Source of the DNA: Eledone cirrhosa
Taxonomy: Eukaryota
DNA length: 64,000 bases
Assembly (NCBI GenBank): GCA_964016885.1
Contig: OZ024743.1
Coordinates: 266,476,001-266,540,000 of the forward strand
Reading direction: 5' to 3'
The notes under the pieces were generated by a model. It searched no databases. It worked only from the letters and a program-made list of their open reading frames with translations, and had not been told where the DNA came from. Position numbers and translations under genes: made by a program. Shown in pieces: positions 1 to 64,000 of this stretch. Within the stretch, counting starts at the first letter, position 1. Every line of letters begins with the position of its first letter.

Positions 1-3000
1 AGAAACATCCCGAAAACAGAGGCTATATTGACAGTAACAAACTAGCCAATATACGAAGAAATATTGTAAGAAAAAAGTTACTAACTAATATAGAAATTGA
101 TCAGATCAAGCTATTAGCACAAAGTCAGCGAAGGGAAAAAGAAACATGTGTCAGTGAAAACGAGGTAAATTGTAACACTTCGAATCCCAGGGTTAGGGCG
201 GAATCACTGGCAACAGAACAAATTAAAGAAAGGATCGAAAAAGTGGAGGGAGTGCATGCTCAAGATGAAACTCCAAATGAAAATAATGAGATCGTAAATG
301 ATAAAGAAATGAATGAGAATGAACTTGCCAACTTGAAGGATGAAATTATGATCGAATGGATGAAAATGAAAGAATCTGACATGGGGCAACGAGACACCTT
401 CCCTAAGATCCAAAACTCCAAACAGAGCCAAAAGATAATACACAAGACTAACATAATTCTCAAAAACATTATCATCACAAACAAACTAAACATTACTGTT
501 TTAAATCATCTCTATTATGCATCGGCTAAAGTCACCACTCACTTATGTGGAGTGAAGATGAAAAAACAAAGGAATTCCCACAAGAAATCTACTTGGCAAG
601 AGAACATCAATCGCCAAATAAACCTTCTTCGATCTGACAGAAATTTTAACAAACTGTAAAGTAGGTGAACATGTTAAACAAACTAAACTTAGAAAATTGA
701 AAAGAAAGTACAGTATAAAATCAACAAGTGACATAGACATGCTGATAGAAATAATCAAGCAAAAAGTGTCGGCCAAAGCTGCTCGTATAAGGCGCTTTGA
801 AAAACGATCTAGATTCTATAAGGACAATAATATGTTCAAAAACAACCAAAGAAACTTCAACAGAAAAATTGGTAAGTCAACAATAACTGCTAAATCAATA
901 CCACCCAAGGAGGAAGTGCAAGAATTCTGGGAAAAGATCTGGGCCGAGAAAAAGTTCATAACATACATGCCCCATGGATAGACAGACAAATAGAAGATAC
1001 AGCTCACCTTGAGGAACAAATATGGGAAAATATAACAGTTGAACAGTTGCGCTTGGCTCTAAGAAAAACCAGCAAATGGAAATCCCCAGGAAAAGACAAA
1101 ATATCAAAACTTTTGGATAAATGCCTTCACAGAGTCTCATGAACTGTTAGCCCAACTTTACAATGAAATAGTTAAGGAGCCAGAAAAGATACCATCATGC
1201 CTAGTTAACGGCATTACATTCCTGCTTCCGAAGAATGATGAGACAAACAATCCCAAAAATTACAGACCGATAACTTGCTTGACCACAATTTATAAAATGT
1301 TAACATCTGTCCTAACTGAATACACATATGACCACCTGATAACAAATGACCTATTTCCCATTGAGCAGAAAGGGTGTAAACGAGGCTCATATGGCTGTAA
1401 GGATCAGCTTTTGTTTAACAAAATGATACTGGAAGATTGTCATAATAGACACAAAAATCTATCGATTTCTTGGATAGATTATAAAAAAGCATTCGATAGT
1501 TTGCCACACAGTTGGATTGAAAAATGTTTAGAGATTTTCAAAATATCCCCCGTTGTCAGGAGGTTTTTGTCATTCAGTATGAAGACATGGAAAACGACAC
1601 TCCTTTTGAATAGTGAAACAAAATCACTGGAAGCTGGAGAAGTTAATATTAATTGTAGAATTTTTCAGGGTGACTCTTTATCACCGCTTTTATTCCGCAT
1701 CGCGCTTATACCATTAAGTAAATTGCTCAATGAGACAAAACATGGATATAAAGTCTATGACAAAACCATTAATCACTTGTTCTACATGGATGACCTGAAA
1801 CTATTTGCAAAAAATGATGAACAATTGCAAGGGCTATTATCCACTGTGGAGCAGTTCAGTGATGACATTAAAATGGAGTTTGGACTAGATAAATGCGCCA
1901 AAGCAACGTTCACCAGAGGAAAGCTGCTGAAGAGTTCAGACATTAATCTTGATCGGGGGAACGTGATAAGAGAACTTGATCAAGGAAAACTTACAAATAT
2001 CAAGGTGTTTGTGAAGGAGACGGAATCAAGCACTCGACAATGAGGGAAAGGATAAGGAAGGAATGTTACCGCAGAGTAAGAGCAATCTTAAGAACGGAAT
2101 TGAATGCAAGGAATAGGATCGATGCCATAAACACGCTTGCCATACCAGTAGTAACCTACAGTTACAATGTCATCAACTGGTCAAGCACAGAGATCCGTAG
2201 GCTCGATACAAAAATTCGAAAATTCTTAACCATGCACAGAATGCATCACCCTAAGGCAGATATCGATAGAATATATCTCCCTAGGAAAGAAGGAGGACGT
2301 GGGTTAATCCAGTTAGACATTGCGTTGAAAACTGCAACAATTGGATTATCTACATATCTAAGGGAATCACATGATTGGATGATCAAACTCGTTTTGAAAC
2401 ACGAAAGCATCAAAAGATCATATTCCATTACAAAAGATGCACAAAGATACAGTAATGGACTACAAATTTCAGAAGTCCCATTTACTGCTGAAATGGAAAA
2501 CACAGAAAAAGCAAAGCAGGTAAAAGTAACTGCAAAGAAAGAACTGCTACAGAAACTGGCTAAGAAATGGCAAGAAAAGCCTCTGTATGGAAAATACCCA
2601 GAACGAGCTAACAATCCTGATGTTGACAAAACTTTAACCCATCAGTGGTTGGCATCCTCTGGACTGAAATCGGAGACTGAAGGACTGATTATATCAGCAC
2701 AAGATCAGTGTCTGCCAACAAAAAATTACCAAGCCAACATAATAAAAAATGGATGCAGCCCATTATGCCGTGTATGCAAAAAACAACCAGAGACCATTGA
2801 CTAATTGATATGTCTGTTCCAATAGGCAAGAATGTATCTATAAAAACATTTGAAAAATTGAGCAAGTATAAGGACCTGTAGATAGAAATTGGAAAAATGT
2901 GGAAATTGAGAACTAAAACAATACCAGTGGTTGTAGGCGCTCTGGGAATGATACCTAAGGGGTCTAATGATTACTTATCGAAGATCCCAGGAAACCCGCG

Positions 3001-3214
3001 TATAGGAGAAATACAAAAGATAGTACTAATGGGAACTGCCCATATACTAAGGAAGATTCTGTCAATATAAGTACATCACAAGTCTAAACACTAAAGATGC
3101 ATGTGTGAGTATGTATGTTCTTTCTTGAACATGGCGGACCTTGTTGTCTCTTGAGGTCACTGGTTGTGACTTGGTGATAACTCGTATGAACATAAAGCAA
3201 GATAAATGCAACTG
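1..3214 (+). mobile_element. Dong/R4-like RLE non-LTR retrotransposon, family A, copy 1 (decayed; 5' end lies outside the window)
   Basis: ORF fragments 243-659, 697-981, 1279-2043 and 2040-2804 carry RT motifs [37 protein letters not shown] and MEFGLDKCA, plus CRVC. A deletion of about 262 bp at ~2801 (relative to copy 2) removes the HxxxxC/RHD/PD region. The C-terminus (IPVVVGALG...ILRKILSI) and 3'UTR run into (TAA)n. Confidence 0.92.
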
Positions 3215-3275
3215 TAATAATAATAATAATAATAATAATAATAATAATAATAATAATAATAATAATAATAATAAT
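3215..3275 (+). repeat. (TAA)n tract, 61 bp, tail-to-tail junction of Dong-A and Tx1-B
   Basis: Read directly. Confidence 0.97.
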
Positions 3276-63575: not shown

Positions 63576-63623
63576 ATTATTATTATTGTTATTATTATTA
63601 TTATTATTATTGTTATTGTTATT

Positions 63624-64000
63624 CCTTGAATCTCAGTCATTGATGTTGGTTAACTGGAAAGTCCGTTGGATTGAATATCAAGCCACTACCTGCAGCCTCA
63701 GATATTCAGGACGTATCGGAGGGTTCTTGCCGTTCCAAGCAAGCATGCCTTTTGAAGCGTTCCAAAAAGCGTGAAGGGGCCGATTTTCTTTAACCATCCC
63801 TGGAAACCTTTGGAGATAGTCCCCAGTGCGCCTATGACAATCGGGACCACTTTGACTTCATGGCAGTTCCAAATCCTTTTCACCTCCCACTTTAGGTCCT
63901 GGTATCGGTTAATTTTCTCCCTCTCCTTCTCTTGCACTCTCGTGTCGAACGGGCAGGCCACATCCACAATCAGGCACGATCTTTTTTCTTTGTCCACAAC
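63624..64000 (-). mobile_element. Dong/R4-like family B, copy 2 (3' end; continues beyond the window)
   Basis: IVDVACPFD...EKINRYQDL...VPIVIGALG. Same 3'UTR as the copy at 55598. Confidence 0.9.

What the first reader, a model, noticed from the sequence alone, without database searches (positions are those of the whole stretch)
1..64000. Two unrelated retrotransposon lineages share (TAA/ATT)n with strictly opposite polarity and build mixed arrays
Seen: all 10 array elements are joined only by TAA/ATT tracts. All 5 RLE (Dong-like) copies run with the TAA strand and all 5 APE (Tx1-like) copies run with the ATT strand. The rule holds in both arrays although the microsatellite is inverted between them. 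Known: Dong targets TAA repeats; the Tx1-group elements Kibi and Koshi target TC and TTC repeats; TRAS and SART insert in opposite orientations into silkworm TTAGG. Inference: RLE and APE nucleases converged on opposite strands of one microsatellite, producing a self-extending 'safe-haven' array. I do not know of a described case. Two of the ten copies come from a duplication and are not independent events.
Basis: partly seen in the sequence, partly recalled or inferred. Interest (0 to 1): 0.85.

Follow-up and report, generated by a model that had tools for sequence, protein, structure and literature searches.

The report
Two retrotransposons share one microsatellite, oppositely
In this animal genome two unrelated kinds of jumping gene sit by the thousand in the same short TAA repeat, one almost always reading along one DNA strand and the other along the opposite strand, likely because each cuts and primes on a different strand, and they pile up into long mixed clusters.

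Summary
The window has two arrays with 5 Dong-like RLE and 5 Tx1-like APE LINEs joined only by TAA/ATT tracts; 8 are independent.

Exact-pattern counts in the 3.0-Gb genome give at least 14,172 RLE and 8,288 APE 3' ends. All 100 listed full-length APE_A heads follow ATT. Only 1 wrong-polarity head was found for APE_A (at least 1,427 heads) and 2 for RLE_A (1,482 heads). Of 120 sampled ends, 70 abut another such LINE and none breaks the rule; alternation is not a rule.

A SINE with an APE-like tail shows 10-21 bp duplications starting at pyrimidine|ATTA. This points to a nick after TAAT on the TAA strand, so the APE machinery likely needs a short motif, not a long tract.

Strand-specific nicking and 'safe haven' were not tested; RNA-tail pairing may enforce polarity too. 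Each ingredient has a precedent (Dong; Kibi/Koshi; Keno/Utopia; TRAS/SART). I found no paper on an (ATT)n-targeting Tx1 family or on this pairing, but Repbase and Dfam could not be checked. Verdict: new variant of a known kind, interest 0.55.

The parts
1..3214 (+). RLE_A copy 1 (Dong-like), broken ORF, 261-bp internal deletion at 2801; begins about 1.3 kb left of the window after a TAA16 tract
3215..3275 (.). (TAA)20 tract, tail-to-tail junction RLE/APE
3276..9142 (-). APE_B copy (Tx1-like), full length, ORFs broken
9143..9181 (.). (AAT)13 tract, head-to-tail junction APE/APE
9182..15211 (-). APE_A copy, full length, both frames open: ORF1 frame 12899-15046, ORF2 frame 9444-13031 (APE endonuclease, RT, zf-RVT); AATAAA 6 bases before the 3' tract
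15212..15231 (.). (TAA)6 tract, end of array 1
36557..36637 (.). (TTA)27 tract preceded by (TTC)3, start of array 2
36638..40564 (-). RLE_A copy 2, lacks about 1.2 kb of 5' UTR, broken ORF; CCHC finger and PD..D nuclease motif present
40565..40587 (.). (TTA)7 tract, head-to-head junction
40588..46066 (+). APE_A copy with a 542-bp deletion at 42963 that removes most of the endonuclease domain
46067..46121 (.). (ATT)18 tract
46122..50048 (-). RLE_A copy 3, duplicate of copy 2 (2 mismatches in 3927 bp)
50049..50071 (.). (TTA)7 tract (duplicate)
50072..55534 (+). APE_A copy, duplicate of 40588-46066 with the same deletion
55535..55595 (.). (ATT)20 tract
55596..57629 (-). RLE_B copy, 5'-truncated inside RT; CCHC finger and PD..D motif present
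57630..57652 (.). (TTA)7-8 tract, head-to-head junction
57653..63575 (+). APE_B copy, older (88-94% to the other APE_B), ORFs broken
59548..59659 (+). 5'-truncated SINE (59568-59639) inside APE_B ORF1, with a 20-bp duplication (59548-59567, 59640-59659) that starts ATTA
63576..63623 (.). imperfect (ATT)16 tract with GTT units
63624..64000 (-). 3' end of an RLE_B copy that continues beyond the window

Best explanation
Two Dong-like (RLE) LINE families and a Tx1-like (APE) LINE lineage sit in (TAA)n microsatellites genome-wide with fixed opposite polarity, likely because each primes reverse transcription on a different strand of the repeat. Shown: target sharing, polarity, copy numbers and arrays. 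Inferred: the APE endonuclease nicks the TAA strand after TAAT at a T/purine step and makes a duplication of about 15-21 bp. Its RNA ends in a few AUU units (AATAAA lies 6 bases before the tract) that pair with the freed TAAT end. The RLE enzyme nicks the TTA strand and its RNA ends in UAA units. Each insertion leaves a tract on both sides, so targets multiply and arrays grow in any order the polarity allows: like elements head-to-tail, unlike elements head-to-head or tail-to-tail. The opposite polarity is most likely inherited from each lineage, not a co-evolved division of the target.
For: Heads: 100 of 100 listed APE_A heads follow ATT (1,427 matches); 1 wrong-polarity match genome-wide, and it still ends in ATT. 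99 of 100 listed RLE_A heads follow TAA (989 of 1,482 heads have nine A/T upstream); 2 perfect wrong-polarity matches. Tails: 95 of 100 listed APE ends are followed by two or more ATT units and none by a TAA tract (read by eye); 100 of 100 listed RLE_B ends are TAA-sense (by eye). In fetched loci, 5'-truncated RLE copies start in TAA in 25 of 29 (RLE_A) and 25 of 35 (RLE_B), none in TTA, so TAA is a target and not just a tail. 70 of 120 ends abut another LINE of the set, with 0 violations. SINE duplications: 14 of 38 non-periodic at 12 bp or more against a shuffled mean of 0.43, maximum 2; 16 of 17 start ATTA, preceded by C or T in 16 of 16. Two APE copies show 17- and 19-bp duplications in the same phase (L192, L016). 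Family-specific imperfect tails on RLE_B and ATTATT joined to non-repeat DNA after APE ends suggest RNA-borne units.
Against: No nicking or priming was measured. Only 18 of 42 truncated APE copies start in ATT; 23 start in other DNA and 1 in TAA (L147/L177). The bulk duplication test for APE (9 of 74 against a control mean of 5.8, maximum 10) and for RLE was not above control. 493 of 1,482 RLE_A heads lack nine A/T upstream and were not inspected. That the SINE is moved by the APE enzyme rests on a resemblance of about 25 terminal bases and a shared phase. No named Dong, Kibi or Koshi sequence was available for the tree, so inherited polarity is not tested.
Confidence: 0.62

Rival explanations
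1. Polarity is set by RNA-DNA pairing alone. Both nucleases cut AT-rich repeats on either strand, and only nicks whose free end pairs with the element's AUU or UAA tail get used. Each copy's transcript picks up the tail from its own downstream tract, so the polarity perpetuates itself.
For: No copy inspected has a poly(A) tail at the APE junction despite the AATAAA signal. 33 of 38 SINE ends read AATTA whether or not a duplication is found. Annealing of target-like 3' RNA aids SART1 and R1Bm priming (PMC7265360, passages).
Against: The base before the duplicated ATTA is C or T in 16 of 16, which pairing at the primer end does not explain. Swapping endonuclease domains switches SART1 to TRAS1 specificity (PMC7265360).
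Confidence: 0.2
2. One reading: the two nucleases co-evolved to use opposite strands, and the arrays are a selected, harmless refuge.
For: Near-absolute polarity; more than half of sampled ends touch another LINE. Targeting repeats is regarded as a low-harm strategy (PMC4640811).
Against: Both classes use the same tracts, so opposite strands do not divide the resource. 40 of 70 neighbours are of the same class. The SINE inserts into APE ORF1 and into ordinary AT-rich DNA. Dong is in TAA in silkworm, mosquito and snail (PMC3812793), so its target predates this host.
Confidence: 0.1
3. No targeting: the tracts are only element-borne tails, and the arrays come from tandem duplication or assembly error.
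For: One 9.5-kb unit in the window is a 99.7% duplicate. Runs of adjacent APE copies share the same tract interruption (L174, L210).
Against: 5' junctions of full-length and truncated copies lie in the tract, with unique and varied DNA beyond it. Neighbours differ by 2-12% and truncate at many different points.
Confidence: 0.04

Closest known systems
Dong (R4 clade, RLE): B. mori Dong, DongAg, DongBg
   Same: Targets TAA microsatellites (PMC3812793, passages). Single ORF with RT, CCHC finger and PD..D nuclease. Dong-R4 is recently active in Octopus vulgaris (5 families, 1,129 young insertions; PMC13282606 Table 1).
   Different: Here at least 14,172 3' ends in two families that share tracts with a Tx1-like lineage. 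No named Dong sequence could be compared.
Kibi, Koshi and crocodilian Tx1 families (Tx1 clade, APE)
   Same: Tx1-clade APE LINEs that insert into T-rich microsatellites: TC, TTC, TTCC, TTTC (PMC4494074, passages). A few APE junctions here lie in TTC tracts (L149, L096/L182, L197).
   Different: The target here is (ATT)n, not listed in the passages I saw; thousands of copies; invertebrate host. Kinship to Kibi/Koshi is untested.
Keno (Tx1, APE) and Utopia (NeSL, RLE)
   Same: An APE and an RLE lineage that evolved specificity for the same target in parallel (PMC4640811, passages).
   Different: Same U2 site with identical 3' flanks, hence the same direction; low-copy gene target; no mixed arrays described in the passages seen.
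TRAS and SART of the silkworm
   Same: Two LINEs in one genome insert into one simple repeat (TTAGG) in opposite directions (PMC7265360, passages).
   Different: Both are APE elements of similar structure (R1 clade, recalled), confined to telomeric repeats. Here the enzymes are unrelated and the target is dispersed over all chromosomes.
SINEU with Tx1-Mar
   Same: A SINE that shares target preference with a Tx1 LINE, with a 16-bp duplication (PMC4494074, passages).
   Different: The SINE here has a tRNA-like head and a weak ATTA preference; the partner link is inferred.

Membership tests
Dong/R4 clade | Single ORF with RT and C-terminal CCHC finger plus PD..(D/E) restriction-like nuclease, no APE domain | tested here: met
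   Motifs found in RLE_A and RLE_B; Pfam RVT_1 without Exo_endo_phos; best PDB hits are R2 proteins
Dong/R4 clade | Insertion in TAA repeats, reading with the TAA strand | tested here: met
   that Dong reads with the TAA strand is recalled
Dong/R4 clade | RT groups with named Dong/R4 references | not testable with these tools
   None of the 120 listed homologues carries a Dong or R4 name; the tree has no such reference; the Dong paper was not held
Tx1 clade | ORF1 plus ORF2 with N-terminal APE endonuclease, RT and C-terminal zinc finger | tested here: met
   L1 ORF2p match E 1e-52 over residues 60-912; catalytic motifs present
Tx1 clade | RT groups with Tx1 references | tested here: inconclusive
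   A protein named 'Transposon TX1 uncharacterized 149 kDa' matches at 32%. Metagenome relatives at 27-31% lie beside U2 snRNA, as Keno does (L244, L247). The tree holds them in one unresolved 17-row group, support 84/90; no L1-clade outgroup was included
Tx1 clade | Target preference (more than 20% of flanks in one sequence type, criterion of PMC4494074) | tested here: met
Tx1 clade | Target-site duplication | tested here: inconclusive
   Two clear cases of 17 and 19 bp; bulk count not above shuffled control
Kibi/Koshi subgroup | Phylogenetic position beside Kibi/Koshi | not testable with these tools
   The nearest outside group (P0002-P0071, most at 40-52%) is unnamed and its flanks could not be fetched
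Kibi/Koshi subgroup | Target (TC)n or (TTC)n | tested here: not met
   Target is (ATT)n; TTC at only a few junctions
MetaSINE | 66-bp Meta domain after a tRNA-derived head | not tested
   Resemblance recalled only; the consensus is in a figure of PMC4824008 that I could not read

The most novel reading that the evidence does not exclude
An undescribed (ATT)n-specific Tx1 lineage, recently amplified in an octopod-like genome, and the Dong families form a three-way system with a partner SINE. Unrelated nucleases read opposite strands of the same 3-bp repeat, and every insertion multiplies targets for all three. The result is thousands of self-growing LINE arrays that are a major engine of genome size and TAA microsatellite abundance in these animals.
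Probability: 0.35. Interest if true: 0.72.

Novelty: new variant of a known kind. Interest (0 to 1): 0.55.

Why it matters
It adds (ATT)n to the known targets of Tx1-type LINEs and gives a natural pair for a standing question: is insertion direction fixed by the nuclease or by pairing of the RNA tail? Both enzyme classes act on one substrate, an intact APE copy is at hand (9182-15211), and thousands of junctions serve as a readout. It also gives a concrete cause for LINE clusters in octopus-like genomes, and warns that TAA markers and assemblies there are unreliable near such arrays.

Tried and rejected
Strict alternation RLE-APE-RLE: rejected; 40 of 70 LINE neighbours are of the same class and array 1 continues with RLE-RLE-RLE.

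Array 1 as an inverted copy of array 2: rejected; order, truncations and deletions differ.

Bulk duplication test for the LINEs: no signal above control, because pure tracts hide duplications.

Flanks of the closest outside relatives: the metagenome scan gave only distant ones, none flanked by a trinucleotide tract among 13 of 31 loci inspected; cluster look-up gave no informative names.

Expression: no RNA holder listed; laying four runs of contigs showed the elements in organisms B, C and D but skipped the repeat junctions, so it says nothing on flanks or expression.

Earlier scan notes: none. Rfam: nothing in the window.

Literature searches for this pairing or an ATT/AAT/TTA-targeting Tx1 found no such paper. 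The library lacks most subscription papers and Repbase Reports.

The first RLE_A DNA search returned only 26 candidates because common words are skipped; counts come from patterns instead. The script stopped at L202; the rest was run. Loci L191-L210 were picked for imperfect tracts and are part of the and 66 totals, which are therefore not a random sample.

Full report
Observation. The window has two LINE arrays, at 1-15231 and 36557-64000. Every junction is a TAA/TTA tract of 6-27 units. Five copies encode RT with a C-terminal CCHC finger and PD..D motif and match R2 proteins best. Five encode an APE endonuclease, RT and zf-RVT and match L1 ORF2p (E 1e-52). All RLE copies read with TAA and all APE copies with ATT. 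One 9.5-kb RLE+APE unit is a 99.7% tandem duplicate, so 8 copies are independent. The 21,325 bp between the arrays hold one tract of 4 or more units. The APE_A copy at 9182-15211 has both frames open. The host is inferred to be an octopod: the closest named ORF2 relative is from Argonauta hians at 73%, in a 3.0-Gb assembly.

Genome-wide counts. Exact patterns give lower bounds: RLE_A 3' ends 4,184, RLE_B 3' ends 9,988, APE 3' ends 8,288, APE_A heads 1,427, RLE_A heads 1,482. The RLE_A head motif was identified from loci where it lies 0.95-1.24 kb upstream of the window's truncated start (4 of 8 loci examined). Listed matches are the first 100 along contig 1, not a random draw.

Polarity. APE_A heads: 100 of 100 listed follow ATT units, with varied unique DNA further up. 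A genome-wide search for the wrong polarity found 1, which still ends in ATT. RLE_A heads: 989 of 1,482 have nine A/T upstream; 99 of 100 listed are TAA-sense and 1 is TTA-sense. The wrong-polarity search found 2. The other 493 heads were not inspected. Tails, read by eye: 95 of 100 APE ends are followed by two or more ATT units and none by a TAA tract; 100 of 100 RLE_B ends are TAA-sense, three of them imperfect. In 995 kb of fetched loci, 3' ends were TTA in 102 of 109 APE, TAA in 61 of 62 RLE_A and 66 of 68 RLE_B. 5' junctions were TTA in 32 of 32 full-length APE; TTA in 18, TAA in 1 and other in 23 of 42 truncated APE; TAA in 25 of 29 truncated RLE_A and 25 of 35 truncated RLE_B, never TTA. 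Four RLE_B ends at the limit of my truncated reference are not true 5' ends and are left out. The 'truncated' class includes later deletions, secondary insertions and divergent families where the alignment stops, and 20 loci were chosen for imperfect tracts.

Arrays. Of 120 ends (30 each of four motifs, in order along contig 1), 70 abut another LINE of the set, 13 a SINE and 37 other DNA. All 40 same-class neighbours run in the same direction and all 30 cross-class neighbours in the opposite direction. Some junctions are counted from both sides, so independent junctions are fewer. A third, older APE head also follows TTA in 4 of 4 loci. Mixed arrays are common, and the alternation in array 2 is not a rule.

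A third player. A 186-bp SINE with a tRNA-like head (8,677 heads with AT-rich flanks) ends in about 25 bases that resemble the APE 3' end. Next to LINEs it takes the APE polarity in 12 of 13 cases. Its copies in non-repeat DNA show duplications: 14 of 38 non-periodic at 12 bp or more, against a shuffled mean of 0.43. In an anchored search of 72 copies, 17 had one; 16 start ATTA, and the base before is C or T in 16 of 16. Two truncated APE copies show 17- and 19-bp duplications in the same phase, but the bulk test for LINEs was not above control. Many SINE heads lie in plain AT-rich DNA, so the core preference is short.

Mechanism. In target-primed reverse transcription (established knowledge) the nicked strand is the one complementary to the RNA's 3' end. 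The APE element therefore primes on the TAA strand and the RLE element on the TTA strand. The duplication phase puts the APE-type nick after TAAT, before a purine, a step like the T/A cut of L1 endonuclease (recalled). AATAAA lies 6 bases before the tract, so the transcript would carry AUU units; 333 ends have exactly ATTATT followed by a non-A base, some joined to SINE-internal DNA that lacks ATTATT. RLE_B tails begin with subfamily-specific imperfect units. I infer that nicking and pairing both act. Each insertion leaves two tracts, so targets multiply. None of this was assayed. Unexplained: why full-length APE heads are always in pure ATT (32 of 32 against 18 of 42, Fisher p = 2e-8), even where the 3' side has one unit only (L159, L197). 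A UUA leader read in from the upstream tract is one possibility.

What is known (passages only; no whole text, no supplements). PMC3812793 lists Dong in TAA, Kibi in TC, Koshi in TTC, Waldo and Mino in AC-type repeats. PMC4494074 adds crocodilian Tx1 in TTCC/TTTC, and SINEU with Tx1-Mar; its Fig. 3 labels further targets that I could not see. PMC4640811 states that Keno (APE) and Utopia (RLE) reached the same U2 site in parallel, and that Togen targets (TG)n. PMC7265360 describes TRAS/SART in opposite directions, endonuclease swaps and RNA annealing. PMC13282606 and PMC8967140 report active or expanded Dong-R4 and L1-Tx1 in cephalopods, with no target in the passages found. PMC11203168 and PMC4824008 added nothing on this target. 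Kojima and Fujiwara 2004 and the Dong paper were not seen. Nine searches found no report of an ATT-targeting Tx1 or of this pairing; Repbase and Dfam were out of reach.

Membership. The RLE families work like Dong and meet its structural and target features; placement beside named Dong could not be tested. The APE lineage meets Tx1 structure and target preference. Distant relatives lie at U2 genes like Keno, and the tree is compatible but unresolved. It is not filed under Kibi/Koshi, whose target it does not share.

Verdict. Real and genome-wide; a new variant of known target-specific LINE biology. Interest 0.55: the pieces have precedents, but their union in one genome, at this scale and with opposite strands, appears undescribed and offers a direct test of what fixes insertion direction.

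Noticed in passing
window 59548-59659; L077, L095, L207 and others; Abundant 186-bp tRNA-like SINE whose 3' end resembles the APE LINE's; duplications start at pyrimidine|ATTA; likely moved by this Tx1-like lineage. More copies at about 17128-20920 and 33571-34998.
   Followed up: partly
window 3276-9142 against 9182-15211: APE_A and APE_B share ORF2 at 95.6% DNA identity but have ORF1 proteins only 34% alike, which suggests a swap of the 5' UTR/ORF1 module.
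   Followed up: partly
L006, L141, L171, L177; 3' ends: A third, older APE family (about 75-80% DNA identity) with its own head and tail also takes the ATT polarity.
   Followed up: partly
L176 and L208, near base 182 of APE_B: The same internal ATTATTAT site of APE_B carries a SINE in one locus and abuts an APE_A 3' end in another: a possible hot spot.
   Followed up: no
G000:C2:188056363-188074692, C1:114792139-114810579, L174, L210: Runs of adjacent APE copies about 6 kb apart share an identical interruption in their tracts: tandem amplification, local re-insertion or assembly error.
   Followed up: no
L033, L061: Two truncated RLE_A copies start at a point whose 7 bases resemble the unique DNA just past the 3' tract; possibly a long duplication with microhomology, possibly chance.
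   Followed up: no
L149/L179, L096/L182, L197: Some APE junctions lie in (TTC)n, the Koshi target, and many TTA tracts are compound with TTC.
   Followed up: no
window 30572-32110 (-): Two open frames, one with a weak GIY-YIG hit (E 0.003): probably a Penelope-like fragment.
   Followed up: no
window 17725-18288 and 22720-23548: Inverted-repeat elements (about 560 and 800 bp) with AT-repeat or duplicated ends, MITE-like.
   Followed up: no
L244, L247, L252 (U2); L249 (U1): Distant Tx1-like relatives in metagenome contigs lie beside U2 snRNA genes, and one beside U1.
   Followed up: partly
RLE_A 5' UTR (L215): The 1.2-kb 5' UTR varies in length between copies and holds a decayed piece of the SINE.
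   Followed up: no
L221, L220 and matches: An unidentified repeat head follows TAA tracts in several places; no coding match was found.
   Followed up: partly
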